A stretch of DNA of 64,000 nucleotides from Giardia intestinalis (taxonomy: Eukaryota). Made by a program: the position numbers and the translations under genes. The notes under the pieces are model-generated. The model ran no database searches. It was not told the DNA's origin and saw only the letters and a program-made list of their open reading frames with translations. The stretch is taken from assembly GCA_000002435.2 (NCBI GenBank), contig CM018793.1. The stretch is one strand, 5' to 3'. Within the stretch, counting starts at the first letter, position 1, and every line of letters starts with the position of its first letter. Positions 3,818 through 44,896 of the stretch are shown one piece after another.

Positions 3818-6007
3818 ATGAGTTCAGCCACTATTGCTACACCTGGGCCTTCTTTAGGCACGCATAATCCAGAGCCAGTGATGTCAGATGAGCTACAGCG
3901 TTGGTTTATGGCTGCTCGGCAAGGAGAAGAAGATTATATAAAGAGCCACATATCGGAGTTTGGACTGAAAAGAAATCACGAGGGGCATACAGCACTAATG
4001 ATAGCTGCTAAGTATGATGTGCCGGAGATTATTTCTATTCTGGTTAACAAGGAGGGCGGGGAGCAAACAGACGGTGGCTTAACGGCGCTCGCTTTACAGA
4101 TCACGTCTGGTCACCCGATCAACCTTGAATTGTTCCAGAAAGAGGGCAATATCCAGGTTCGTAGCCACGTCGAGCCAGCATTCCTCGCTGTCATGGTAGA
4201 CAACGTGGATGCGCTGCAATTTATCATCCAGAATATGGGCGATAGCACATCGGGCGAGTCTCTTTACTTATTAGACATTTGCATCGACAACAACTCTGTG
4301 TGTTGCTTTGAGCACCTTATGACTGCATTTACAAATATCCCCAACTCTTACATCAATAAGTTGATAAGCATAGTAGAAAAAAAGCTAGATGTGAACCCCA
4401 GGATCATTAGCATTCTTCGGCGATACAAGCCGTCGCTCACATCCGTGAGTAGAAGTGCTACGACACCTCCACGGACCAAGAAGAAGTCCGAACCTGTCCC
4501 ACTTGTGGGGAGCTCATTAAAGCGATCCGTCTCCGCGACAGTCGACCCTAACTCTCAAGGCAGTTCTTCTCCTGATCCTATGCTAGGTAAGTTGCAGTCT
4601 CCTCGAGAGGCACCTGTGGCCTCTCTGCCACCACCTCCCCAAACTACCTCACCCCTCACCATGACAGACATCGCTCCCCTGCGTGACCAAGACGATGTTC
4701 ACAATGTATCAAGGGGCCCGACCAAACGGTATACGGCCCAATGCTCTAGGGTAGATCCTGTGGCAGATATGATCTTGAGTACTACCCCCAATTTTCCACA
4801 GGATTCCAATGCGTACATGGACACAGGGGTGGGGACAGACACTCTAAGTAATGACCTATTAAAGCCTATGGCTGACCAGCTTGACGCAGATCTCGCCTAC
4901 AAAGCGGACTACGGGCTACTTCCAGGAAAGCTTCCTCTTGCGGAGGGGATTGATGACAACAATGGTTGCAGAGATAATCACAAATGCTGCATCGAATATG
5001 CCTGTCTACTGATGAAGTATGACGATCTGGAGGAAAATAACACATATTTGTATGAAAAAAATTCAGCCTTGCATTCAGAAATAGGAGAGTTAAAACAGAA
5101 CATCATTAAATTAAAAGCCCAGATTGAGCAGCAGAACGCAGATAACGAAGCGCTCAGAAAGTCGTTGGAGGACGCTAGGTCAGCACCCACTCTATCGGCC
5201 TTGCCAGGCCATACCAGCGGCCACCCTGAAATGGATGCTTCTACCTTACATAGTACAGAAGAGCCAGAGTTGGATGAGGGTAATATGATCGGGAAGCTCC
5301 AAATGTATATCATGAAGTCCAGAAGGCTTGAACAGGAGAATCGAGCTCTTAAGCAAAGGCTAGAGGACTGCGTAGCTAAGATTCATGCATTAGAGCGAGA
5401 GAATACGATGAAGGGCCGTCTCAATCAACTGCTTACAGAGGACAACAAGCGCTCAAGGGAGCAATCCAGGTGCACGTCCGTTATATCGCGCTCAGAAAGC
5501 GTCCTGTCGCCAAGCAATACATTCATGGATAGTATGACGGTTGGCCTGGAAGACAGCATAATGGACATGATTACAAGCAAACTTACGGATAGAACTAAGC
5601 TAGAAGCCAATGTATTGCGACGGAAGGTTGCAGAGCTCCGTGCCGATATGTCCCAAATGCTAGAAGATCTCATGATCATCAGTAGTTACTCTATGGATCT
5701 GCTTCCTCCATCCTGTGCTGGGGGCGTGTATACGGCCAACCTCAGAGAAAGAGCTATACGACTGGAGAAGCAAGCTAATACCGACTCCGTCAAGGTGCTG
5801 TTCAAGCGCCACGCAGACTTGGTCATAGACTGCCTGACTTATTTGAGATCCATCCGAGATGAGTCTCGTTCCTATGAAGAGGAGTTCCCGGAGAGCAGGA
5901 GCAAGAGCAGGAGTAGAAGCAAGAACAAGAGTAGGATGGGACGTGCATCCAGTAGATCGTTGTTTGGAACTATACTTCACAAGATTGGTCTGGGAGGAGA
6001 GGATTAG
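3818..6007 (+). CDS. ankyrin-repeat plus coiled-coil protein (Giardia Protein 21.1-like family)
   Basis: N-terminal ankyrin repeats (GHTALMIAAKYDVPEIISILV; GGLTALALQITSGHPINLELF). Long C-terminal heptad-rich region (LHSEIGELKQNIIKLKAQIEQQNADNEALRKSLE) and an SRSKSRSRSKNKSR tail. The track start at 3782 is TTG; first ATG is at 3818. Confidence 0.8.
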   Translation: MSSATIATPGPSLGTHNPEPVMSDELQRWFMAARQGEEDYIKSHISEFGLKRNHEGHTALMIAAKYDVPEIISILVNKEGGEQTDGGLTALALQITSGHPINLELFQKEGNIQVRSHVEPAFLAVMVDNVDALQFIIQNMGDSTSGESLYLLDICIDNNSVCCFEHLMTAFTNIPNSYINKLISIVEKKLDVNPRIISILRRYKPSLTSVSRSATTPPRTKKKSEPVPLVGSSLKRSVSATVDPNSQGSSSPDPMLGKLQSPREAPVASLPPPPQTTSPLTMTDIAPLRDQDDVHNVSRGPTKRYTAQCSRVDPVADMILSTTPNFPQDSNAYMDTGVGTDTLSNDLLKPMADQLDADLAYKADYGLLPGKLPLAEGIDDNNGCRDNHKCCIEYACLLMKYDDLEENNTYLYEKNSALHSEIGELKQNIIKLKAQIEQQNADNEALRKSLEDARSAPTLSALPGHTSGHPEMDASTLHSTEEPELDEGNMIGKLQMYIMKSRRLEQENRALKQRLEDCVAKIHALERENTMKGRLNQLLTEDNKRSREQSRCTSVISRSESVLSPSNTFMDSMTVGLEDSIMDMITSKLTDRTKLEANVLRRKVAELRADMSQMLEDLMIISSYSMDLLPPSCAGGVYTANLRERAIRLEKQANTDSVKVLFKRHADLVIDCLTYLRSIRDESRSYEEEFPESRSKSRSRSKNKSRMGRASSRSLFGTILHKIGLGGED

Positions 6008-11258: not shown

Positions 11259-12989
11259 CTAGAGCTTGGTCCTTGCGCGGGAACCGGACAAGTAGGATGG
11301 AGTGGGATCTTCGTTTAAGCTAAAAGGATCATTAACTACTATGCCTGCACTCGAACACGCTTCCTTGTCTTCTGGAATACCTTCAGAGGTATCGAATTTG
11401 ACAAAGGGGAGGTTCGAGAAGATATCCGAGGAGACAGAGGACAGCTCTGTATAGTTTTGCTGCGTAAATTGCGAATAGAACATCTGCTCGCTTTTAACGC
11501 CACCTTCCCCATTGTCTCCAGATGAAGCAGTCCATTGTGTGCCGCATGCCATCTCTTCCTGGGTGGGGGTTCTAGTACCCGAGGCCAATAACGAGGCAGG
11601 ATGAACAGGAAAGTCCAGACTGCATACTGACGCAGAACTGGACGCTGATGCCGATGCCGAGTAAACGCTAGCGGCACGAAAATGATCTACAACTTGGTTG
11701 GGAGTGACCGGGATTGGTGGTGGCTTGGTCCAGGCTGCCTGAGCTGGCATGCAGGGCAACGCGGAGTGAGAGCTGAACGGAGAAGGAGCCGACGATATGG
11801 CAGCTGGTTGATCATTAGACTCCCAAGAGGAAAAGGTGGAGCTATAGTACCCTCCAGAGTCACCAAAGATAGGCATTGTGTTGCCATGGACTTCACCATA
11901 TACAGGTGTTCTATCCGTTTTGGTGACGATATAATCGGGATCTTGCTCCAGGCCCAGCTCCAGACTAGAAGTTGTGGCTAGACCAGGGACACCACGCGAT
12001 AGCAGATTGGAAGACACACTGCCATGCGCTTGTGCAGGGTTGGGCACCCAGTATTGTTGCCCATCAGCTGTCAGGGGATGCTGCGACTGGGGCTGGGGCA
12101 GGGGAGCTATGGGGATAGACCTCATAACATTGTAGGACGAATCTATACTATACTGAGGAAGAGGAGAATCGGAAAGGTTGGCTAACACTGTAAAGCTTTG
12201 TGAGGGATTTTTGGAAGAAAGTGAGCCAGAGTACGTAGCTTTTGTTGATAGACTTGGTAAGCTACTTGACATAAACTTGGGATAATTCAAGGAGAGCTTC
12301 GGCATCAGAAGGCTCGAAGAACTGGAAGAGCTAGCAGCTCTGGGGCCTGTAGGTAGCGGGAGGTCTCTCCGCTGCAGAAGACAGGTTTGGTCTTGCTGGT
12401 CTGTGTCAGCCCCTGTGTATTTATTGCTGGTTCCAGCAAAGAGACTTGGCTGGAGAACGTCGTCCGACGGAGTTATAATTTTGAATTGCTCTTGCTCGCA
12501 GATCTGTGAACTCTGGAGTAGAAGATCGTTAAAGGTATACCCAAGATTAGTATAACAATCTTTCAGCATCCGACACTTCTTGATGTTATGGAATGCCCTG
12601 CGAAGTATAACTCGGCTATACTTACGACCGCTGGTGGGAGCGAATTTGGCTAGAACCTCTGCAGATGGATAGCATCGGCTAGAAAGGAGAGACGCAATAA
12701 ACATGGTGAACTCTGATCTGTCGGTGATGTCCATGATCGAGCCAGAGCTCTCATATCGCGGCTTGATAACCTCGTTGAAATGCTTGCGAGCTAGTTGTTT
12801 CTGAATGTTGCAGCTATTTCCTATGCGAGCCCAGTCTATTTGGTCTTTGTGTGCCTGAGCTGCAGAAATGATAGCGACAGGATCAGATGAGGGCACCCCG
12901 AGCTGGTGCGCCATGAGCATAAGGATTTTATCGGATGTTACCTGGCTGATATTTGGCCCACGATGGGATTTTCCAGTAAGACTTGGCAT
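11259..12989 (-). CDS. Ser/Pro-rich hypothetical protein with possible degenerate Myb/SANT-like N-terminus
   Basis: 576-aa ORF; the N-terminus RGPNISQVTSDKILMLMAHQLG...DWARIGNSCNIQKQLARKHFNEVIKP loosely fits an R2-type Myb repeat (RGPW...W..IA..L.GR..KQCRERW.N.L.P). The remainder is S/P/Q-rich low complexity. Confidence 0.6.
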   Translation of the reverse strand: MPSLTGKSHRGPNISQVTSDKILMLMAHQLGVPSSDPVAIISAAQAHKDQIDWARIGNSCNIQKQLARKHFNEVIKPRYESSGSIMDITDRSEFTMFIASLLSSRCYPSAEVLAKFAPTSGRKYSRVILRRAFHNIKKCRMLKDCYTNLGYTFNDLLLQSSQICEQEQFKIITPSDDVLQPSLFAGTSNKYTGADTDQQDQTCLLQRRDLPLPTGPRAASSSSSSSLLMPKLSLNYPKFMSSSLPSLSTKATYSGSLSSKNPSQSFTVLANLSDSPLPQYSIDSSYNVMRSIPIAPLPQPQSQHPLTADGQQYWVPNPAQAHGSVSSNLLSRGVPGLATTSSLELGLEQDPDYIVTKTDRTPVYGEVHGNTMPIFGDSGGYYSSTFSSWESNDQPAAISSAPSPFSSHSALPCMPAQAAWTKPPPIPVTPNQVVDHFRAASVYSASASASSSASVCSLDFPVHPASLLASGTRTPTQEEMACGTQWTASSGDNGEGGVKSEQMFYSQFTQQNYTELSSVSSDIFSNLPFVKFDTSEGIPEDKEACSSAGIVVNDPFSLNEDPTPSYLSGSRARTKL

Positions 12990-13673
12990 TTGTCAATTAT
13001 TTTTTTAAGTTTGGGCACATTCCTTGACGAATAATTAAACACCGAGATTTTCAAATGGATTTATACCAGCGCGACTTTTCTGTTGCTTAGTGGAGACACT
13101 TGCTCTTGAACGACCGCACCCGGTAACCACATACATGAAGCGTACTATCTGATGCTGCAGAGATTGGAGGCCATTATACGCCAATACACTTTTGCCCATT
13201 TTGTCGGATGGAGGCCTTTTCTCTCTATTATGTTTGTCGGCACTTACAACACGGAATACTACTATTGTGCCCATCTAGACCTACCTAAATATACTTAAAT
13301 CAGCTTAATTTACAAGCAATAAATTGTGAATAGAAATACACTAACATTAGCCTGGGCAAGCAAGACCGCCTCTGAAGCAGTTTCTCATGAGCCAGTTTGT
13401 CCCGCCAACGGAGTTTGACCCGACTATTTACATATATAAATACAAATAAGGATTAGAGGCACTAAGACACTAGGGTCACTATTATTGAAGAGCATAACAA
13501 TTGTATCAGCGGATGTAGTGTGACAATGTGGACACTTGAAGATAGCAGTATTCTTACAACTCTCAGGCACGCGACGAACACATTTATGCCTGCAGGTAAT
13601 AACATGACAACCCACTGACTAGACAAATATGCAATGCAATCTTAAGTAGTCTTCTCCAGAGAAGCAAAATAAT

Positions 13674-14550
13674 TCATCGGAATCTATAGTACTTCGTCAC
13701 ACTCACAGAATGGATAAGGTCTGTCCAGCTAGAGACACCATTCTCATGCTTCATCAGAAGCTTCACCGTCTCGTCCCTTCCGTTCTGGGCGGTGATGATG
13801 AGGGTGGTCAGACCCTGCCTGTCCTTCTTACCCTTTTCATCGAGGTGTTGAGACACCATGTCCGTGTCTTCGAGTGATGCGGTGTACATAGGCATTGTCC
13901 AGCCAGCGGCGTCCTTCTTGTGTGTCATGAGAAGCTTTGCAACATTGTGATGGCCGGCTCGCAACCTCTAGTCCCTTCTCGTGCTAGGCAAGGGTTTGAC
14001 TGCTTCTAGGCCTCTACTCTGCGCCACTGTCACCAGAACAACAGAGTCAATATCAGTCAGAGCGTTATGGACTTAACGGCCTCTGCATGGATAAAAGGGA
14101 GGAAGGATGCCATCAATGTTGCTGTTTCCTGAACCGTAAAAATAGGTAAGAGCAGAAGTGATCTGCTTAGTGGTACAAAAGACGTCATTAGCAGGCATAG
14201 TCTCTCCTTGACTCTCTCCCCAGTGCAGATGCAGAGGTGAAGTAACACTTTGCGTAGCAAGGTAAAGAGTAGAACCCTTTCTAAGCATTCGCTGCACCTA
14301 GATACTCCCAGGATATGAGAGCGCACCAAGCATCCCAAATGGCACTGAGAGAACTAGGGGGTAAGTTCTCCAACTGGACCTTCAGAAGCACGTTAGTGAG
14401 GCTACCCTTTAAGGCGTAAGCAACCTAGTCAGGTTCCTTGTCAATAAGCCCATCGATATCCTGCAACGTCTTGTCAAAGCGGACATGGAGACCAGAAATG
14501 ACAGGCGGATTTTTAGTCCGGTCGCTAAAAAGTTGTTGAATCGATTAAAG
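13674..14550 (-). pseudogene. decayed ankyrin-repeat (21.1-like) gene remnant
   Basis: Three short minus-strand ORFs in different frames all carry ankyrin-like segments: AGHHNVAKLLM...GLTTLIITAQNGRDETVKLLMKHE; KGSTLYLATQSVTSPLHLH; ISGLHVRFDKTLQDIDGLIDKEPD. The ORF 13674-13964 starts at TTG directly after an in-frame TAG, the next segments need frameshifts, and no intron signals are present. Confidence 0.35.
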
Positions 14551-14910
14551 CGCCGGCTTCTCATACGGGCTATAGGGCTACCATAATTGGCCAGCCTGTT
14601 GCGTAGTCACAAATAAATACGCGTCATGCTAGCATGTCTTTTCATTTTTGCTGAGAATGTGTCAACGCACTTGATTGCCACCTTCCTTTTCTTCTGTTTT
14701 GGGAAGCGATCATTCCACCGTTGCGGTAGGCGGCCAGCCGGCCGGCTTCTGTCCACCAGTACAGACCTGATTTAAAAACTGTTATTGAAGACTGCCATTG
14801 CAGACTACAAGTAGGATTGCTTCTTAATTATTTAAATACGATATCTGCAGTTTCCAACTTACGAACTTTCTTCCCTTGCAGAGCTAACAAACTTTAAATC
14901 TGATAGTATC

Positions 14911-14929
14911 AGGACTTTTTTTAAATAAA
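14911..14929 (+). promoter_or_regulatory. AT-rich initiator-like element abutting the Sec7 gene ATG
   Basis: aggactttttttaaataaa ATG. Short A/T-rich sequence immediately 5' of the start codon, the arrangement typical of diplomonad core promoters. Confidence 0.45.
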
Positions 14930-17900
14930 ATGTCACATCTCCCTGAAGACTTCCAATACATTGGAGAGCTTCTTTCTAGCATCATAAGGGTTCTCCCCAG
15001 AAAGTTAGGGGCTCTCCGTCCTCCTCTGAAGAACCTAGAGAGTATTTTCATCTCTTTCTTGACAGTCATCAATGAGGACACAGATCAAATTTCAATCAGC
15101 GCTAACGACTTCTTGGCGTCCGTTAAGCCGATACCCCACGACTCGTATCTTGCCGAGGGGGCAGAAGTTCTTAAAACAATAGCCAAGCTACTTTCCTCCC
15201 AACACCAGAAACTGATAAATCCACAAGACGAATGCACCCATCAGCAGCAAATGATTTATCTAGGGGACCTAGTGGAACTTTCTGCCACAGCCCCCTCCGA
15301 GGCTGTGTGTGCTGCCGATGGCGTCACGAAAAGCACGAAGAGTAAGAAAGCCAAGGCCATAGCGCGGGATAAGATGGTTTTACAGCTTTACTACGAGACC
15401 TTTTCCAACAGCAAAATGCTTCTTCCACTTCTAGGAATAGCACTAAAGATTCTCTCCCTGCAGATAGACTCTCATATCAATGCTGTGCCCTCAAAGCTCA
15501 TTGAGCTGTGCTATTGCTTGCTCACAGTTCTTCTAGCAAGTGGAGTACTTTATATGTCGTCTGCCCAACTCTGCTTGCAGGGTCTTCTTGCAGTAGAGTA
15601 CAGACGACTAGTTAAATATGATAGCAGGAAGAGTGTTTTTCACAACTTTCTGATGCTGGAGTCGTGCTTCAACTTTGACCGAGAGATTGTTGCTGTTCGA
15701 ACTCTCCTGCTCTGCCTTATTAATTGTGCTGCACTGCGAAACGTTTATTTAATTGAGCAGCAAGCTCAACTAGTGGACAACAGCCCTGAGCCCTCAGCGG
15801 CTGTGTCTGCTAACTGGATAACCGAACACACGCTTCTCCTGATCAAGTATGTGCTGTGTCGTTTGTTCACAATTATACTGGCACTGGACAAGAACTTTCC
15901 CTCGGTGTCAAAGCTGAAGCCGTCTGTTAGCACAAAGACTCTAGCCACTGATTCGAATATTTATGACTACGCCAGCCTAGTGTTTCTTCGTGTTCAGGCA
16001 TCTATAGAAACCCTTGAGATAACGCCCGAGCAGTTCTCTTGCATGAATCAACGGAAGTATGAGCAATTTTTGAATACTGTGCAACGATTAGACGTTTTAC
16101 ATCTTCATGAAGTGCTGAATGTTTCCCATTCCTCCTCGCTTCCCATTGGCCTTATGCCATCCACTACACGCATGTACTTCTACAATGCTGTGACAACCTC
16201 CATTGCTCAAGTATTTTCGTACGCCTTTCACTTGCGTTCTCTACACTTGAAAGGTGGCTTTTTAATTCCTCGGGTGCCCCCAGACCTTGACAAGTCTCGA
16301 ATAGCATGCATCGGAGAAGATAAAGAGGCAATGGTAAATCTGCAAGCACCCAGTAATAGCGAAGCTAGCCATAGGACTAATGCTTCCATGCACATGGATA
16401 CAGTAGAATCCTATATGTTGTCTATTACCGGCGAATTCATAAGGGTGTTATCGCGTCAGCCAGATGCTCTTGTTTCTCTTTCCTTAGAAATGTACTTGGC
16501 TTTCACCACTGTCATCAAGGCTATGCAGGCCCCATCCCAAATCTTCATGCTCACATATCGTCATGTTTCCCAGCTGCTGCACATCCTTATCGACACCATA
16601 AGCATAGGTCTAAGTGCAGACTCTAGCGAACTTTATCGCATCTCCTTGTACTTTCTTAGAAAACTGCTTGTAGTCGCACTACCCATGCCTGGCCTATTCG
16701 AGGTAATTAACTCAATATTGCAAAACTTTCTGATAATGCCTCTGAACGAAAGCGAATCTGCAGACATCCGCGGCCATGGATTGCTCTTCATAGACCTATT
16801 GCTCGGAACAACCTATGCTGGAAAGGATGCTACTTATACAGAGAAACAAATCAATCTCCTGAGCTTCTTGTACGATAGTCACATTGCCAGCAGTGATATC
16901 GTGTGTTCTGCTCTCCCAGGGCTATATCCAATGAAACCTATTGTTCTCAGCCTGCTTGACGCTGTGGCAAACAACCTCAACACTTATATGACGTTAACAG
17001 ACGCGTCACTCACAAGCATATCCCATAAGACTCTTTCGTTAGAAGCTCTTTTGTATAAATATATAGACCTATCGCACCGCGTAGACGCTACGACGCTCAC
17101 GGCCCAATACTCCTTGAGCCCGCAAGGCCCCAACAACACTGCAGTGTTCTTTTCAACTGTAGCCGATTGTGCGGTCCATGTTTTGGTGTCTATTATGCGG
17201 GGATTTAGGAGGTTCTTGATGGATAGAAAGTTAACGGAAGCGCAGCAGATGATAATTCTTTCTAATAAGCCGTTAGAGGACCACATAGTTTCGCTGCTCA
17301 ATGACTATCGCCGGAACACATTGATCTCTGAGTTTGCAACTGCCTCTAGGCCGAAGAAGGTTATTCAGAAAATGATTCAATGCGGCTACATCCGTAACGA
17401 CCACAGATCCATCATACGCTACATTGTTTCTCAGAATTTCAATAAGAAAGGATTTGGAGTACTCCTTGGCGATCCACACGAATCAGAGCTTCTGGAAGCC
17501 TTTGCAGATATTGTTTTCAGTGATCTGAGGCTCTTCATCGACTCAGTGCGCCAAGGAAAAACAGGATCGATGGTTTCAGTCCCCAACTCTGAAGATAGGT
17601 CGTGCTACGATAGAGTGGCTGCCATGGTTAATACCGAGTCCCTAGGCTCGTTATTCACATTAACTCAGAAGGAGATGCAGACTCTGCGAGCCCGGCAACG
17701 GCAACAACAGCAGCAGCAGCAACAAAAGTCATCATCTGAAGGTCGCCAGTCCGATCATACACCAATTATCCCGGTAATGTGTCGGTGGTCTGAGCAGAAG
17801 GAGATGCCGGAAAAATCAGAGAACATCTTCTTGATAGCTATAAGATACTACTTATCGTTCTTTCACATTCCTGGGGAAAGCCAGCAGATTGAGCGAATCA

Positions 17901-20900
17901 TGAAGGTCTTCTCGCAGCACTTTGTGCATCTCTTTTCTCTCTTGCCAGATGACATGAAGAATGGGACGACATTTACTCAGGAGTTAGCATACATACTATC
18001 GTATGCAGTGCTCATGCTAAATACAGACTTGCACAACTCATCTGTCAAAGAGAAAATGACCAAGGAAGTGTTCATCAAAAATACGAAGTGTGCAGACAAG
18101 CAGGACCTCATCCAAGTCCAATTCCTGGCAGAGCTATATGATGGCATCATCTCTTCGCCCTTTAGTATTAACGAGATCAGGACCAGGCAGTTTATCAGTA
18201 CCCACGGCTTCCCACAGTTATGCAAAAAGCTAGGAAAGTATATATCTATGGAACTTGACTGTGTCTATCGAGAGTCTGCCAATTGTCACAACACACTTAC
18301 TGTGAAGCTTGATGAATGCGACGACATTCTGATGGACATTCTTGAAGAAGATACCAACTTAGATCTGGTGTCCAAGCCTTCGCTAACAGCTTGCTCGTCG
18401 GAGTCTTGCATTAGGGGTACAGACGCATCACATACTCCACTCGCTTCTACCAGTACAGCATCGAAGGGTCGCGATGACCAGAACAGTGGAACAACCGAGC
18501 CTGATGCAGCTGCAGTTGAAGAGCACATAGAGGCAGGAAGCCTGGCAATGCCATTGCAGAAGATTGCATATAATCTGCAGCAAACCACACCACAGTCCAC
18601 TGCCACTCCCCGTGATCCAGAAGAATCTGGCCATGGCTCTGAGACCCTTGCCACAGCCGAACAAAAGTCACATAACAATGAACAGCCAACTCCGCAAGCT
18701 AGCCCGCCGAGTGGACCGATATCCATATCGGATATTCAGGCATTCAAGCAATATGAGCGGTTTCTTCGAATTAATATAGCACTGAACATGTTTATGAATC
18801 GCGCAGTTGACTCACTCACAGTCTATATGAAGGCTTTATGGTTCAAAGTTCCAGCTGAGTTCACTGGCGCCGTTCCAGAGCTTGTTTTCCACTTATATAG
18901 ACTTTGCGATTATTTGATTGTCTGTCAGACGAAGCAGAATATTGCAGAGGAACGTATCAGCGACATCATTTCCCGAGAAGAGACAATACTTCGCATCTTC
19001 CAGCACCGATCTCAGCTGCTTCGTAACCTTGTTATTTCGAGCTTATTCTATCTCAGGCGGCATGTCTGGCATGCCAATCTTATTATTCCACACTTGGAGC
19101 CTTCCGAGCTATCGACACAGCTAGCTTCTAGCTTAAGGCTGGGTAACAGCAAGGAGGACTTTACTCTCTTAGCCACGTTAGCTGGGCAGCACTGCGCTGT
19201 AGCCATAGTCCTCTTCGTGCTTGTATCCTCTCATGTCAATGAGGGCGCATATGAAGCCTTTGGGCATCTATACAATCTTTCTAGAATTCTGTACAAGCTC
19301 GTGAGCGACTCTAACCCAAAGGCACTGCGTCAAAGCTTTGTTCTTTCAAATCAAGAATTATCGCGTGGGATTGCTCTCCAGGAGTATACCTCGTTCCACA
19401 TTATTGAACACTTTATTAATCCATATCTTCACATCCTTATCATTGCCAATAAAGTTTTCCAGAAGTTGGGTCTACGCCTTGAAATCTTTAGCACCCTGGC
19501 ACTATCCTTTTCTGACAATATTTTGTACTTCTATAGGCACCTCCTAGATATTTTCACAGTGTCTCTTTTGGGCTCAGATAAGGTATGCGCCATTGTACTA
19601 GAGCAGCACGGAAAGGAGCTACATGCGTACAACATGATTCGGCTACCTATCAGTGTTGATTTCCTTACATTTACAATCAATATCTTTAAGCTCAGACTGC
19701 GAAAAGTTTATAATGCTACACCGGACAAGCAGTTGCCCGATGCAGGCACAGAGGTTCCGGCACTCATGACCCCTCGACGGGGGCTGCATACAGTAGATGT
19801 GGACATATACTCTCCAATAACGTGTCTAGATGCGTCGCGGTGTGATGCTAATGATGTTAATGATACTGCATCTAAGCCTACCACCCTTGACATGATCTTG
19901 GAGGAGTTCTCACTCGTATACAGTTCACTCATAGTCAGTATTCTCTATGGATATGTGTACTCGAACGACCCGCTAGAAAATGCTGCTACGTGCGCTACTC
20001 TCATACGGACTTTGAGTAGGTTTGTCAAGTACATGCTGCCTATTTTTAGGAACAACTTTGAATACTCTGATAACAGACTATCCAGGCTTTTCTTCCTTCC
20101 GCTAGCACACCTGAGCAAGCTGATACCGTATCCAACAGACTTGTCGCTGCTTTTTGCAATGGTCAATGAGCTCCTCACAGAGCTCCCTGATACTGATGAC
20201 CATGACGCTATCTTTTCTGTTATTCTTTCCTCATTGTACAGAATAACGAACAAGAGTCACAATACGTCTATTGAGAATGGTCTTGAAGAGCTTGCATGCA
20301 CAGAGTGCTTCCATGAGAACAGTGAGCCAGACTTTCCATATAGCTCAAGGTCCTGTTTATTTAGCACTGATTTTCTGGTACTGTACCGAAAGAGCACGCC
20401 TATTGACATGACTGCTTTACAGAACACGCTCATGGGCTCCACCATATTGGAACATGGAGCTTCTGTGGTATACCCTACAATCGCGCAGAAAAAGAAGAGC
20501 TTACTACAGGGCTCATCTGTTCTTTCATGCATTACACCTAACGCCTCTATCACCAGCTCCATTAGTGCCTCTGTCACATACTCCAATGAGTATAGCTGGT
20601 CAACGACCTATGAACAACTTGATGGGCTGCTAAACTTCTTGGGCTCCAAGGTCTCTGAATTGAATAACACAAATGCAAGCAGATTTTGTACTGCCATAGC
20701 TCACTTTACATGTCTTGGAGAGACTACCATCTCTAGGACTGCGCTAGGAATCCTCAAAGAAGCGCTGCCAACTATTTTGTCGCTTCACACGGAGCATACA
20801 CTCGTACTGCTGGAATGTTACCTTAAAACTTTGGAAGCTGCGACCCAGACGAGCAGAGCACTAGCGCTGAGGAACTTTGTATACTCTATCGCCACAGTCC

Positions 20901-22033
20901 TAATTAATAGCGAGCTCTCTTGCAACTCGGAGCTGTGGGGCTCAGTGTGGCAACGTTGTGTCTCCCCTATCCTTGTGTTCCAGTACACTAGAAACGAGTA
21001 CGATATCTTGCTCTTTGTGGCCCATACAATTTACTTGATGCTTTCACCGAATGCTCCATTGAACGCTCCATCAAATGAGTATAGCAGTACAGAGGTCGAA
21101 CTAACGCATCAGACCCTCCAGTCGGCATGCACTTCCTTCCTTTCTCCACTAGCCACAGATTGTTCTAGCATATCGTCATCCAAGCAGCATACCATTGTCT
21201 CAGCGTTCTTTGCATTGGTACTGCAATTAATGTTGCAAGGGCAACCCGGGGCCGAGGCAATCGCGCTCCTTTTTTCAGGCGTTATTGAGCCCATGCTCTT
21301 GGTGTCAAACATGTACCAGGTGAAGAGCTCCTTTAGCGCTAAGGAATATATTTATGATCCGCTTTTTGATTTACTAGTAGATAGGGTTGACACCACAACA
21401 TTTCTAAGTTCCACAAAAGAGCAGTCAGTGGCTCCACGCATCACAAGTGCAGCCACACTTCTCAGGTACACACTTGATACTTTGATTTCTGCTCAATTTG
21501 ATCTGCTTAACAATGATGCATTTGCTTTCTTCTGTTCTGTTCTAGAAGGACCTGTCTTAGAGCTCTTGAAGAACATATCTGAAACATACAGTTCTCATAA
21601 TAATTTACGAACCGAAGATTGTGAGGCAATTGCATCTGGGGCAGATTTAGTATTTGCGTTAGCAAGCTTACTGGCACCTGGTACAGAGAGCGAATGTTCC
21701 GCACCTGATCATTTCCTCAATAGATTGAAGCAATCGGATCACGATATTGGTAGAGTTCTTCGATTTACAGAACAAGGACTGGTTCAATGCATATCATTGC
21801 TCACCGTTCTCTCCCGCAAGCTTTCTCCAACGGACGAAACTATTTGCGCTGAATATCACCGCATATCTAACGAGCTCTTTTCAATACTAACCACCCTGCT
21901 AACCGCGGACCCATCTATAAAGACCATTTGCAAGGCTACTTTCAAGAAGCTTATAACGCTGGCAGTTCACAACGATTTAGAGATAAGAATGGCTCTAGTT
22001 TCATACTTGGACGCTTACGACGAAAAATTCTGA
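14930..22033 (+). CDS. Sec7-domain ARF guanine-nucleotide exchange factor (BIG/GBF-like), 2367 aa
   Basis: [21 protein letters not shown]...[32 protein letters not shown] matches the Sec7 catalytic motifs (F.[24 protein letters not shown]). Contains a poly-Q tract. ATG follows ggactttttttaaataaa. Confidence 0.9.
   Translation: [2367 protein letters not shown]
17696..17725 (+). repeat. CAA/CAG trinucleotide tract encoding [10 protein letters not shown] in the Sec7 ARF-GEF
   Basis: caacggcaacaacagcagcagcagcaacaa, in frame. Confidence 0.9.
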
Positions 22034-43486: not shown

Positions 43487-44851
43487 TTAGTAGGCGTCGT
43501 CCTCCTCCATGTCCTCGCCCTCGCCGTCGCCAAGGGTCTCGGCGCCGATCTCCTCGTAGTCCTTCTCGAGGGCGGCGAGGTCCTCGCGGGCCTCGGAGAA
43601 CTCGCCCTCCTCCATGCCCTCACCGACGTACCAGTGCACGAAGGCGCGCTTGGCGTACATCAGGTCGAACTTGTGGTCCATGCGGGACCAAACCTCGGCG
43701 ATGGCCGTCGTGTTGGAGATCATGAGGCAGGAGCGCTGGACCTTCGCAAGGTCGCCGCCGGGGATGACGGTCGGGGGCTGGTAGTTGATGCCGACCTTGA
43801 AGCCTGTCGGGCACCAGTCGACGAACTGGATCGTGCGCTTCGTCTTGATGACCGCGATGGCCGCGTTGACGTCCTTCGGGACGACGTCGCCGCGGTACAT
43901 CATGCAGCACGCCATGTACTTGCCGTGGCGGGGGTCGCACTTGACCATCATGTTCGCCGGCTCGAAGACGGAGTTGGTGAGCTCGGCGACGGAGAGCTTC
44001 TCGTGGTACGCCTTCTCGGACGAGATGATGGGCGCGTACGAGCAGAGCGGGAAGTGGATGCGCGGGTACGGGACGAGGTTCGTCTGGAACTCCGTCAGGT
44101 CGACGTTGAGGGCGCCGTCGAAGCGGAGCGAGGCTGTGATCGAGGAGATGCACTGGGCAATCAGGCGGTTGAGGTTCGTGTATGTCGGGCGCTCGATGTC
44201 GAGGTTGCGGCGGCAGATGTCGTACATGGCCTCGTTGTCGACCATGAAGGCGCAGTCGGAGTGCTCAAGCATCGAGTGCGCGGCGAGGATCGTGTTGTAC
44301 GGCTCGACGACGGCCGTCGCGATCTGGGGCGAGGGGTAGACGACGAACTCGAGCTTGGACTTGCGGCCGTAGTCGACGCTCAGGCGCTCGAGGAAGAGGG
44401 ACCCGAAGCCGGCGCCCGTGCCTCCTCCGAAGGAGTGGAAGATCAGGAAGCCCTGGAGCCCGGAGCAGTTGTCTGCGAGCTTGCGGACGCGGTCGAGGAC
44501 GAGGTCGACGATCTCCTTGCCGATCGTGTAGTGCCCGCGGGCGTAGTTGTTGGCGGCGTCCTCCTTGCCGGAGATCAGTTGCTCGGGGTGGTAGAGCTGG
44601 CGGTACGAGCCCGCGCGGACCTCGTCGACGACCGTGGGCTCGAGGTCAACGAAGACCGCGCGCGGGACGTGCTTGCCGGCGCCCGTCTCCGAGAAGAACG
44701 TGTTGAACGCGTCGTCGCCGCCCCCGATCGTCTTGTCGGACGGCATCTGGCCGTCGTGCTGGATCCCGTGCTCGAGGCAGTAGAGTTCCCAGCAGGCGTT
44801 GCCGATCTGGACTCCGGCCTGGCCGATGTGGACCGAGATGCACTCACGCAT
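43487..44851 (-). CDS. alpha-tubulin
   Basis: 454-aa product [31 protein letters not shown]...[11 protein letters not shown]...[40 protein letters not shown]...EEDDAY is canonical alpha-tubulin. Third codon positions are GC-saturated. Confidence 0.97.
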
Positions 44852-44896
44852 TTTTATTTCCGCCCGTCCAGACTCTGGAATTTGCTGATTTGAATT
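44852..44896 (-). promoter_or_regulatory. alpha-tubulin upstream region (45 nt between upstream gene stop and tubulin ATG)
   Basis: Coding-strand reads ...gaattcaaatcagcaaattccagagtctggacgggcggaaataaaa ATG. The A-rich initiator is flush with the ATG, and the whole promoter must fit in 45 nt or extend into the upstream ORF. Confidence 0.45.

What the first reader, a model, noticed from the sequence alone, without database searches (positions are those of the whole stretch)
12990..14929. 1.9-kb ORF desert containing a decayed ankyrin-repeat gene
This is the only stretch longer than 600 nt without a long ORF in an otherwise saturated window. Its right half (13674-14550, minus strand) holds ankyrin-repeat-like peptide segments in three different reading frames, separated by stops and a TTG pseudo-start. 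That is the signature of a frameshifted 21.1-family pseudogene. The left half (12990-13673) has no coding signal and could harbour a non-coding RNA or be the pseudogene's eroded 3' end.
Basis: seen in the sequence. Interest (0 to 1): 0.5.

Follow-up and report, generated by a model that had tools for sequence, protein, structure and literature searches.

The report
Dead ankyrin–RING gene relic in Giardia
The 1.9-kb gap is the wreck of a Giardia ankyrin-repeat plus RING-finger gene that is still intact at the same position in a more distant Giardia lineage, so it is an ordinary pseudogene in a gene family already known to leave them.

Summary
The window is Giardia intestinalis WB (assemblage AI). 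The gap 12990-14929 lies between GL50803_007230 (minus strand) and a Sec7 GEF (plus strand) and is the largest ORF-free stretch in the window.

- Ankyrin similarity sits in one reading frame only, 14075-13713. It is not in three frames and does not reach 14550.
- The 'signal-free' left half contains the decayed RING finger of the same gene, at 13710-13493.
- A more divergent G. duodenalis lineage has an intact ankyrin + RING ORF of at least 592 aa at the same position and on the same strand. Against it, WB lacks about 1.5 kb, with the break at a 6-nt microhomology.
- WB also carries four in-frame stops and a 1-nt frameshift.
- All these lesions are shared by three assemblage-A lineages and by independent assemblies, so they are not sequencing errors.
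- Assemblage B has a 1,074-nt gap with no detectable trace of the gene.
- The only open piece (96 aa; an 84-aa version was once annotated 'Protein 21.1') has extra stops in the other A lineages.
- Its 249-nt core diverges 3-7 times faster than the rest of the gap, in mosaic tracts that match paralogues. This points to ectopic gene conversion.

No ncRNA evidence was found. Low interest.

The parts
12990..13066 (-). Promoter and 5' region of GL50803_007230, with an AT-rich initiator directly before ATG 12989. It is not part of the pseudogene.
   Evidence: This is one of only two blocks in the gap that align between assemblages A and B (70.5% over 78 nt, E 3e-7). The ATG and the AT-rich motif align in four lineages. 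There are no differences among WB, DH and Ay here.
13067..13492 (.). Former 3' spacer between the dead gene and GL50803_007230. It appears to be unconstrained.
   Evidence: The intact lineage has a 387-nt spacer at this place. Divergence is 2.8% for WB-DH and 1.2% for WB-Ay, close to the dS of the flanking genes. It does not align with assemblage B. Rfam and tRNA scans find nothing. Fold z-scores are +0.8 and +0.4. The 79-aa ORF 13035-13274 has 8 of 9 WB-DH differences at codon positions 1 or 2.
13493..13712 (-). Remnant of the pre-RING segment and the C3HC4 RING finger. It has in-frame stops at 13686-13684 and 13644-13642, a 1-nt frameshift at about 13594, and lost zinc ligands (CxxC has become CIAY).
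   Evidence: A frameshift-aware alignment to the C-terminus of the syntenic intact ORF (L020) scores 106 against 32.5 +/- 5.1 in 100 dinucleotide shuffles (z 14.3, none reach it). Paralogue C-termini score 47-70. At nucleotide level, 13711-13586 matches L022 1527-1653 at 68% (E 4e-12). Among 251 collected proteins, the syntenic one is the best match.
13706..13711 (-). Junction of an internal deletion of about 1.5 kb (about 1,501 nt, which shifts the frame). The junction sits on a 6-nt microhomology, ATTCTG versus ACTCTG.
   Evidence: Window 13736-13706 aligns to L022 1-31, and window 13711-13586 aligns to L022 1527-1653. The two alignments overlap by 6 nt. At protein level, residues 2-69 and 510-569 of the intact ORF abut here in different frames.
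13713..13961 (-). Ankyrin 'module' of about 2.5 repeats. It is the only part still open in WB and is a target of ectopic gene conversion from paralogous ARP genes.
   Evidence: It is 89-90% identical at nucleotide level to the paralogues P0004 (two copies in WB) and P0014 (DH), which lie in different genomic contexts. Divergence among A lineages is 26/249 and 23/249, against 38/1686 and 23/1687 in the rest of the gap (Fisher p 1.4e-8 and 6.7e-10). Difference tracts are mosaic. In 13831-13791, Ay equals the paralogues at 11 sites where WB and DH agree with each other.
13674..13964 (-). Residual ORF of 96 aa from TTG, or 84 aa from ATG 13928. The 84-aa version was annotated XP_001706861.1 'Protein 21.1' in the older WB annotation.
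   Evidence: Pfam Ank_2 35.7 bits. The identity to XP_001706861.1 comes. The ORF is broken by W->stop in DH and Ay, and by a further Q->stop in Ay. There is no AT-rich initiator upstream of ATG 13928. The last 12 codons run past the deletion junction into out-of-frame pre-RING sequence.
13962..14075 (-). Decayed ankyrin repeat(s) upstream of the module. There are in-frame stops at 14075-14073 and 13970-13968, and a deletion of about 33 nt relative to the paralogues.
   Evidence: tblastn: 50% identity over 132 aa to WB Protein 21.1 P0042 (14069-13707) and 55% over 119 aa to P0043. The nucleotide alignment with L006 and L012 shows the deletion. Both stops are shared by WB, DH and Ay.
14076..14794 (.). 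Unassigned sequence. By inference it is the fully decayed 5' part of the same gene. This cannot be tested because the 5' half of the intact orthologue is missing from every available contig.
   Evidence: No ankyrin or other protein similarity was found. Nothing aligns with assemblage B, the paralogue loci or the rest of the window. GC is 0.46-0.49, which is like coding sequence, against 0.40-0.41 in the left half. Divergence is 1.9-3.1% among A lineages.
14795..14846 (.). AT-rich block conserved between assemblages A and B (minus strand: AGATATCGTATTTAAATAATTAAGAAG). It is either the orphaned promoter of the dead gene or an upstream element of Sec7.
   Evidence: 72.7% over 55 nt against assemblage B (E 3e-4). 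The ATG that follows it in WB (14797-14795) is GTG in DH and Ay. The function is inferred only.
14847..14929 (+). Proximal promoter of the Sec7 gene, with the AT-rich initiator TTTTTTTAAATAAA directly before the ATG (the full context, including the base before the ATG, reads TTTTTTTAAATAAAATG).
   Evidence: Sequence context. The motif next to the ATG is conserved with assemblage B.

Best explanation
The gap is a unitary (in situ, non-processed) pseudogene of a Giardia ankyrin-repeat + C-terminal RING-finger protein. This is the Protein 21.1 family, class ARP-2 in the 2020 nomenclature. The gene was transcribed on the minus strand, in the same direction as GL50803_007230.

Shown:
- An intact positional orthologue exists in another G. 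duodenalis lineage.
- The WB copy keeps about 360 nt of ankyrin sequence (14075-13713) joined directly to about 220 nt of pre-RING and RING sequence (13710-13493).
- Between the two pieces, about 1.5 kb is missing, with the break at a short microhomology that shifts the frame.
- The remainder carries four stops and one further frameshift.
- All of these lesions are shared by three assemblage-A lineages.
- The 249-nt ankyrin core carries mosaic tracts that match paralogues.

Inferred:
- The gene died before assemblage A diversified.
- The gap, taken as a whole outside the module, drifts at roughly the synonymous rate.
- The ankyrin core keeps being overwritten by ectopic gene conversion from functional paralogues. 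That would explain why it still looks fresh and is still open in WB.
- 14076-14794 is the unrecognisable 5' part of the gene.
- Apart from the short promoters of the two flanking genes at each end, the region has no present function.
For: Organism and annotation.

Reality of the sequence: independent Logan assemblies are 100% identical over the gap. DH (AII) is 96.5% identical and SRR3177919 ('Ay', PMC9618722) is 97.4% identical, with the same stops and frameshifts.

Intact syntenic orthologue: the ORF of at least 592 aa at L020/L022/L023 1-1779 lies directly upstream of, and on the same strand as, the 7230 orthologue. It scores 144.6 bits on Ank_2 and 51.6 bits on zf-C3HC4_3. It is open in three datasets, with 7 nt and 3 aa differences between L020 and L022.

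RING remnant: z = 14.3 against shuffles, best with the syntenic protein. At nucleotide level it is 68% identical, E 4e-12.

Deletion junction.

Ankyrin part.

Neutrality: gap divergence outside the module is 2.25% (WB-DH) and 1.4% (WB-Ay). The flanking genes have dS 2.5-4.4% and 2.0-3.6%, and dN about 0.5-0.8%. DH and Ay have lineage-specific extra stops.

Gene conversion.

Family context: ARP-2 is defined as ankyrin + zinc finger (PMC7641422). WB Protein 21.1 pseudogenes with intact positional orthologues have already been reported (PMC3091692 and its Additional file 2).
Against: - The RING remnant is not recognised by any Pfam RING model. Its identification rests on one intact orthologue lineage plus weaker matches to paralogues.
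- The 5' half of the intact orthologue is missing, because all three contigs break at the same repeat. The gene's full length, its start, and the origin of 14076-14794 are therefore unknown.
- The ankyrin module is more similar to paralogues than to anything syntenic. On its own it could be an ectopic insertion.
- Assemblage B shows no trace of the gene. A gain in some lineages, rather than a loss in B, is therefore not excluded without a rooted assemblage tree.
- The segments next to the module diverge less between WB and DH than the rest of the gap (0.66% vs 2.85%, p 0.005, a partition chosen after seeing the data). This is not seen for WB-Ay and is unexplained.
- Expression was not tested.
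Confidence: 0.85

Rival explanations
1. The 84/96-aa ORF (13674-13964) is a functional, very short two-repeat ankyrin protein, as the older WB annotation implied. On this reading the rest of the gap is just spacer.
For: The ORF is open in WB and passes the Pfam Ank_2 threshold. It was annotated as XP_001706861.1. Short ankyrin ORFs of 169-180 aa from the same subfamily are annotated elsewhere (P0004, P0014).
Against: The ORF is interrupted by stop codons in the two other assemblage-A lineages. Its C-terminal 12 codons are out-of-frame pre-RING sequence beyond the deletion junction. There is no AT-rich initiator upstream of its ATG. It has no NCBI record in the protein collection; it is held there only under the old XP accession via EukProt, plus Logan.
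Confidence: 0.06
2. The ankyrin segment did not originate in place. A fragment of a paralogous ARP gene was copied into an old intergenic region by ectopic recombination, and only the RING remnant descends from a resident gene.
For: The module is 89-90% identical to paralogues located elsewhere, with sharp boundaries at 13961 and 13713. Nothing upstream of 14075 is recognisable.
Against: Window 13736-13706 continues into the first 31 nt of the syntenic intact ORF (80.6%). That ORF's contigs all begin exactly where the module would end, which suggests the intact gene carries the same module. Similarity to the paralogues extends beyond the high-identity tract to 14075 at lower identity, as expected for an old resident sequence that was partly converted.
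Confidence: 0.1
3. The left half (12990-13673) or the unassigned right part encodes a non-coding RNA, and that RNA is the reason the gap persists.
For: There are about 430 nt and about 720 nt of sequence with no assigned function. Giardia expresses many small RNAs (general knowledge, not tested here).
Against: There is no Rfam match at E <= 1 and no tRNA. Fold energies are no better than shuffles, with z +0.8 and +0.4. Assemblage B shows no conservation beyond the two promoter-proximal blocks. Divergence within assemblage A is near the synonymous rate.
Confidence: 0.03
4. The frameshifts and stops are sequencing or assembly errors in an otherwise intact gene.
For: None beyond the general possibility. 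The locus contains a repeat that breaks short-read assemblies.
Against: Independent assemblies from different runs are 100% identical. The same lesions occur in DH and Ay, which differ from WB at 2-3% of sites. The main lesion is a 1.5-kb deletion, not a homopolymer slip.
Confidence: 0.01

Closest known systems
Giardia Protein 21.1 family, class ARP-2 (ankyrin repeats + zinc finger; Xu et al. 2020, PMC7641422)
   Same: The relic has ankyrin repeats of the Giardia type. They are 50-55% identical to the family members P0042 (WB Protein 21.1) and P0043. It also has a C-terminal C3HC4 RING region homologous to those of ARP-2 proteins (P0049, P0050, P0054, the G. muris 'Ankyrin repeat protein 2' proteins, and the syntenic L020 ORF).
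   Different: It is not a working member. About 1.5 kb is deleted, there are four stops and a frameshift, and zinc ligands are lost. Only a 96-aa ankyrin-only ORF remains, and only in WB.
WB pseudogenes of common gene families with intact positional orthologues (Jerlstrom-Hultqvist et al. 2010, PMC3091692, Additional file 2)
   Same: It is the same kind of object: a disrupted Protein 21.1 gene in WB, in a conserved syntenic core region, with an intact positional orthologue in another lineage.
   Different: That paper lists three WB 21.1 pseudogenes by their P15 orthologues (GLP15_4704, GLP15_5112, GLP15_1536). I could not establish whether this locus is one of them. Here the intact copy was found in a lineage more divergent than assemblage B. 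The assemblage E state was not recovered.
Pseudogene participation in gene conversion within Giardia multigene families (discussed for VSP pseudogenes in PMC7641422)
   Same: A dead family member still exchanges short sequence tracts with functional paralogues.
   Different: Here the pseudogene is shown only as an acceptor. There is no evidence that it donates sequence or that the exchange has any functional role.

Membership tests
Giardia Protein 21.1 / ankyrin repeat proteins (ARP) | Ankyrin repeats detectable by a profile | tested here: met
   Pfam Ank_2 scores 35.7 bits against a gathering score of 27.3 on 13674-13964. The Giardia repeat HMM scores 24.7 bits. There is 50-55% identity to the family members P0042 (WB Protein 21.1) and P0043.
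ARP-2 subclass (ankyrin + zinc finger) | A C-terminal zinc-finger (RING, C3HC4) domain homologous to those of ARP-2 proteins | tested here: met
   The frameshift-aware alignment of 13710-13493 to the RING end of the syntenic ORF scores 106 against 32.5 +/- 5.1 in shuffles. Paralogue RING ends score 47-70. The nucleotide match has E 4e-12.
ARP-2 subclass (ankyrin + zinc finger) | An intact RING: a complete set of zinc ligands, recognised by Pfam RING models, in one open frame with the repeats | tested here: not met
   No Pfam RING hit at E <= 10 on the reconstructed remnant. The first CxxC has become CIAY. There are two stops and one frameshift inside it. This fits a dead member, not a working one.
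Unitary pseudogene | Homology to a functional gene at the orthologous position | tested here: met
   An intact ORF of at least 592 aa lies upstream of the 7230 orthologue, on the same strand, in L020/L022/L023.
Unitary pseudogene | Disabling lesions that are real rather than errors | tested here: met
   Four stops, a 1-nt frameshift and a deletion of about 1.5 kb. The sequence is identical in independent assemblies, and the lesions are shared by DH and Ay.
Unitary pseudogene | Evolution without coding constraint | tested here: inconclusive
   Non-module divergence is 1.4-2.25%, close to the flanking dS of 2.0-4.4% and above dN of 0.5-0.8%. DH and Ay have gained further stops. However, divergence is uneven: the segments next to the module are 0.66% in WB-DH, and gene conversion confounds the module.
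Unitary pseudogene | No functional expression | not testable with these tools
   No RNA-seq, SAGE or proteomic data were available. PMC3091692 reports no SAGE tags for the WB pseudogenes it lists, but this locus was not matched to that list.
Ectopic gene conversion tract | Locally elevated divergence between orthologous copies, with mosaic tracts identical to paralogues | tested here: met
   Divergence is 9-10% in 13713-13961 against 1.4-2.25% elsewhere (p 1e-8 and 7e-10). At 11 sites in 13831-13791, Ay equals the paralogues L006 and L012 while WB and DH agree with each other. A formal GENECONV-type test and donor identification were not done.

The most novel reading that the evidence does not exclude
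The relic is not inert. Its 249-nt ankyrin core is kept open in WB and exchanges sequence in both directions with functional ARP genes. On this reading it acts as a small reservoir for diversification of ankyrin repeats, in the way VSP pseudogenes are proposed to do, or it is expressed as a sub-assemblage-AI-specific two-repeat ankyrin microprotein.
Probability: 0.08. Interest if true: 0.45.

Novelty: new member of a known kind. Interest (0 to 1): 0.18.

Why it matters
The main value is for annotation.
- The 84-aa 'Protein 21.1' model at this locus should be treated as a fragment of an ARP-2 pseudogene.
- The gap needs no further explanation.
- The locus is a clean, datable example of gene loss in a syntenic core region of Giardia: intact in one lineage, wrecked in assemblage A, undetectable in assemblage B.
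- It also shows that short conversion tracts from paralogues keep rewriting a dead ankyrin fragment. That is a caution for anyone using such fragments in typing or phylogeny.

It does not bear on any open question.

Tried and rejected
- Ankyrin signal upstream of 14075. I tried Pfam on all frames, a Giardia repeat HMM, tblastn with 11 family proteins, a frameshift-tolerant DP against shuffles, and sensitive blastn against the paralogue loci, assemblage B and the rest of the window. All were negative.
- Pfam recognition of the RING remnant: negative.
- Spliced gene: no Giardia-type intron 3' motif. There is only one GTATGT, with no acceptor.
- ncRNA: Rfam, tRNA and fold z-scores were negative.
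- Repeats: no tandem repeats or inverted repeats; one 14-nt two-copy direct repeat, consistent with chance.
- The 79-aa ORF 13035-13274 stays open in DH and Ay, but 8 of its 9 substitutions fall at codon positions 1 or 2. It was rejected as a gene.
- Remnant in assemblage B: none found.
- Recovering the 5' half of the intact orthologue failed. All three contigs start at the same base, and the second divergent lineage's contig (L026) holds only 344 nt upstream.
- Finding an assemblage E orthologue failed. The word-indexed searches returned none. The P15 ARP-2 protein P0050 matches the RING remnant worse than the syntenic ORF does. A phmmer search of the 96-aa ORF gave only multi-repeat family members.
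- Naming the divergent lineage failed. The run accessions ERR3333378 and ERR3333381 look like the dog assemblage C/D project PRJEB32663, but the paper does not list run numbers, so this is unverified.
Full report
**Source and setting.** The ankyrin fragment in the gap is identical to XP_001706861.1 'Protein 21.1 [Giardia lamblia ATCC 50803]'. The left flanking gene is GL50803_007230. The window is therefore Giardia intestinalis WB, sub-assemblage AI. The gap 12990-14929 (1,940 nt) lies between GL50803_007230 (11259-12989, minus strand) and a 2,367-aa Sec7-domain protein (14930-22033, plus strand; Pfam Sec7 123.9 bits). It is the largest interval in the window without an ORF of at least 150 aa.

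**Is the ankyrin observation real?** In part.
- The minus-strand ORF 13674-13964 passes the Pfam Ank_2 gathering threshold, with 35.7 bits against 27.3.
- I built a Giardia-specific 33-residue repeat HMM from 643 repeats of family members and ran it on all six frames of the gap. It found only 13802-13725 (24.7 bits) and 13961-13911 (6.2 bits), both in the same frame. Every other score was negative.
- tblastn with 11 family proteins puts every ankyrin HSP in that single frame. The clear matches begin at 14069, with 50% identity over 132 aa to the 707-aa WB Protein 21.1 P0042. Only three long 20-25% alignments reach 14153-14195.
- A frameshift-tolerant alignment of paralogue N-termini to 14076-14560 does not exceed dinucleotide shuffles.
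- So ankyrin similarity is real in 14075-13713, in one frame. It is not present in three frames and does not reach 14550.

**Not an error.** Independent Logan assemblies from different sequencing runs are 100% identical to the window across the gap. The DH genome (AII; L017) aligns over the whole gap at 96.5%. SRR3177919 (L024) aligns at 97.4%; it is an assemblage-A genotype that Seabolt et al. called 'Ay' (PMC9618722). There are no indels anywhere in 14199-13067.

**The orthologous locus elsewhere.** I used the flanking 576-aa protein as an anchor.
- Assemblage B: the protein cluster contains GL50581_47 of isolate GS (locus L019). It has the same gene order but a gap of only 1,074 nt with no called gene. 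No ankyrin or RING similarity is detectable there by tblastn, HMM or blastn.
- A more divergent lineage: the flank protein is 57% identical to WB, against 70% for assemblage B (loci L020, L022, L023). It carries an uninterrupted ORF of at least 592 aa directly upstream of the 7230 orthologue, on the same strand, and 387 nt away.
- That ORF scores 144.6 bits on Ank_2 (six stretches) and 51.6 bits on zf-C3HC4_3. It is open in three datasets, with 7 nt and 3 aa differences between L020 and L022.
- It belongs to the class that Xu et al. 2020 call ARP-2, meaning ankyrin repeats plus a zinc finger (PMC7641422).
- All three contigs begin at the same base, so the 5' part of this gene is not available.
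- The lineage is probably one of the dog assemblages C or D, judging from the run accessions. I could not verify this.
- In G. muris the interval holds other genes: ENTH, a 177-aa ORF and an 878-aa protein.

**The left half contains the RING finger.**
- tblastn of the intact ORF against the window gives two hits. Residues 2-69 match 13907-13704. Residues 510-569 match 13710-13525 in a different frame. Residues 546-584 continue in the third frame at 13603-13493.
- A frameshift-aware alignment of the last 123 residues to 13712-13400 scores 106. One hundred dinucleotide shuffles give 32.5 +/- 5.1 with a maximum of 46, so z = 14.3.
- The aligned sequences are FCECDEVL*IPMNYFASLEKTT*DCIAYLSSQWVVMLLP/CRH.K.CVRRVPESCKNTAIFKCPHCHTTSADTIVM in the window, against FCEYDGVIDVLMTCLASIEEDSYDCVVCMSKPRSVILLPCRHFLICQSCLKDIRKSSSNIKCPFCRSVVTDQCIV in the intact protein.
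- The remnant has two in-frame stops (13686-13684 and 13644-13642) and a 1-nt frameshift at about 13594. The first CxxC has been lost.
- RING ends of paralogues score less, at 47-70. Among 251 collected family proteins, the syntenic one is the best match.
- At nucleotide level, 13711-13586 matches L022 1527-1653 at 68% (E 4e-12).
- Pfam does not recognise the remnant, which is expected given the damage.

**The main lesion is a deletion.** Window 13736-13706 aligns to L022 1-31 (25 of 31 identical). Window 13711-13586 aligns to L022 1527-1653. The two alignments overlap on ATTCTG in the window, which corresponds to ACTCTG and ATTCTG in L022. Relative to the intact gene, about 1,501 nt (about 500 codons of ankyrin repeats) are missing. 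The break lies at a 6-nt microhomology, and the length is not a multiple of three, which explains the change of frame at 13712/13710. This assumes the assemblage-A ancestor had about the same number of repeats as L022.

**Other lesions, and their age.** In the ankyrin frame there are stops at 14075-14073 and 13970-13968. There is also a deletion of about 33 nt relative to the paralogues. All of these, the RING stops, the frameshift and the big deletion are present in WB, DH and Ay. The gene was therefore dead before these lineages separated. DH and Ay have each gained a further stop (W to stop) inside the segment that is still open in WB, and Ay has a second one (Q to stop). The 96-aa ORF is thus not conserved even within assemblage A. 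Its last 12 codons are out-of-frame pre-RING sequence, and no AT-rich initiator precedes its ATG.

**Rate of change.** Outside 13713-13961, the gap differs at 38/1686 sites (2.25%) between WB and DH, and at 23/1687 sites (1.4%) between WB and Ay. For the flanking genes, dS is 2.5-4.4% and 2.0-3.6%, and dN is 0.5-0.8%. The gap therefore changes at about the synonymous rate.

The rate is uneven, however. In WB-DH, the segments next to the module show 0.66% against 2.85% elsewhere (p 0.005, with the partition chosen after seeing the data). In WB-Ay there is no such difference. I have no firm explanation. Mosaic ancestry among A lineages is one possibility.

**Gene conversion in the ankyrin core.**
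- The 249 nt at 13713-13961 differ at 26 sites (WB-DH) and 23 sites (WB-Ay). This is 9-10%, which is 3-7 times the rest of the gap (Fisher p 1.4e-8 and 6.7e-10).
- The same 249 nt are 89-90% identical to two paralogous loci in other genomic contexts. L006 encodes 'Ankyrin repeat protein 1' (P0004), present twice in WB. L012 encodes P0014 of DH. Identity stops sharply at both ends.
- The differences among A lineages come in tracts. At 11 sites in 13831-13791, Ay carries the paralogue state while WB and DH share another state. DH has a run of private changes in 13782-13726, some of which match the paralogue P0043.
- This is the pattern expected from repeated short ectopic conversions into the pseudogene from different family members. 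No formal test or donor assignment was done.
- A 57-nt stretch (13790-13734) is identical between the window and L006. This explains why several short-read contigs end there, and why one contig (L025) joins the pseudogene's upstream sequence to the P0004 locus. That contig is most likely an assembly chimera.

**The rest of the gap.**
- 13067-13492 corresponds to the 3' spacer of the dead gene. It has no Rfam or tRNA match and no unusual folding, and it does not align with assemblage B.
- Its 79-aa ORF accumulates almost only changes at codon positions 1 and 2 (8 of 9).
- 14076-14794 matches nothing available. Its GC content (0.46-0.49) is closer to coding sequence than that of the left half (0.40-0.41). 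I infer that it is the decayed 5' part of the gene. This cannot be tested without the 5' half of the intact orthologue.
- Only two blocks align between assemblages A and B. One is 12990-13066, the promoter of GL50803_007230. The other is 14795-14846, an AT-rich element 90-115 nt upstream of the Sec7 ATG.
- No Giardia-type intron signals are present.

**Comparison with what is known.** Protein 21.1 is one of the large variable families of Giardia. Jerlstrom-Hultqvist et al. 2010 reported five WB pseudogenes, all in common gene families. Three of them are Protein 21.1 genes with intact positional orthologues in P15 (PMC3091692). I could not determine whether this locus is among them. The object is thus of a known kind. 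What is added here is:
- its parent architecture (ARP-2);
- the RING remnant;
- the deletion junction;
- the age of the lesions relative to the assemblage-A radiation;
- the conversion mosaic.

**Verdict.** This is a real but ordinary pseudogene. Interest is low.

Noticed in passing
window 12920-12989 (minus strand): The ATG at 12989, with an AT-rich initiator directly upstream, aligns with the start codons of the orthologues in assemblage B and in two more divergent lineages. The current WB model GL50803_007230 is 553 aa, which puts its start 23 codons downstream at 12920, where there is no AT-rich context. The model is probably short at the N-terminus.
   Followed up: partly
window 14817-14841: The AT-rich block AGATATCGTATTTAAATAATTAAGAAG (minus strand) is conserved between assemblages A and B, 90-115 nt upstream of the Sec7 ATG. 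It is either the orphaned promoter of the dead gene or an upstream element of Sec7.
   Followed up: partly
window 13734-13790; loci L002, L004, L025, L020, L022, L023: A 57-nt stretch is identical between the pseudogene and the paralogue P0004 locus. Short-read contigs end inside it (at 13763 and 13751). One contig (L025, SRR29338406) joins the pseudogene's upstream sequence to the P0004 locus, predicting a chimeric 181-aa protein (P0015). This is probably an assembly chimera, though a real recombinant is not excluded. The three contigs of the divergent lineage all start at the homologous point.
   Followed up: partly
window 13493-13712 and 13962-14199, against L017: The segments either side of the conversion-prone module diverge less between WB and DH (3/458) than the rest of the gap (35/1228, p 0.005). 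The same is not true for WB against Ay. This is unexplained.
   Followed up: partly
window 43487-44893: Two long ORFs overlap almost completely on opposite strands: 43487-44851 (minus, 454 aa) and 43634-44893 (plus, 419 aa).
   Followed up: no
window 5970-6007; also L001, L019 and L022: The folate-carrier gene and the neighbouring ankyrin-repeat gene converge, and their 3' ends overlap by 38 nt. The overlap is present in assemblage A, assemblage B and the divergent lineage.
   Followed up: no
L021 (G. muris CM016929.1): In G. muris the Sec7 and 7230 orthologues are separated by three other genes (an ENTH protein, a 177-aa ORF and an 878-aa protein), and Sec7 has the opposite orientation. The adjacency seen in G. 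intestinalis is therefore not ancestral to the genus, or it was rearranged in G. muris.
   Followed up: no
L006 and L012-L014 (paralogue loci): The paralogue genes P0004 (169 aa) and P0014 (180 aa) are themselves flanked by short adjacent ankyrin ORFs (62, 131 and 68 aa). The two loci are orthologous at 89% nucleotide identity. They may also be fragmented ARP genes.
   Followed up: no
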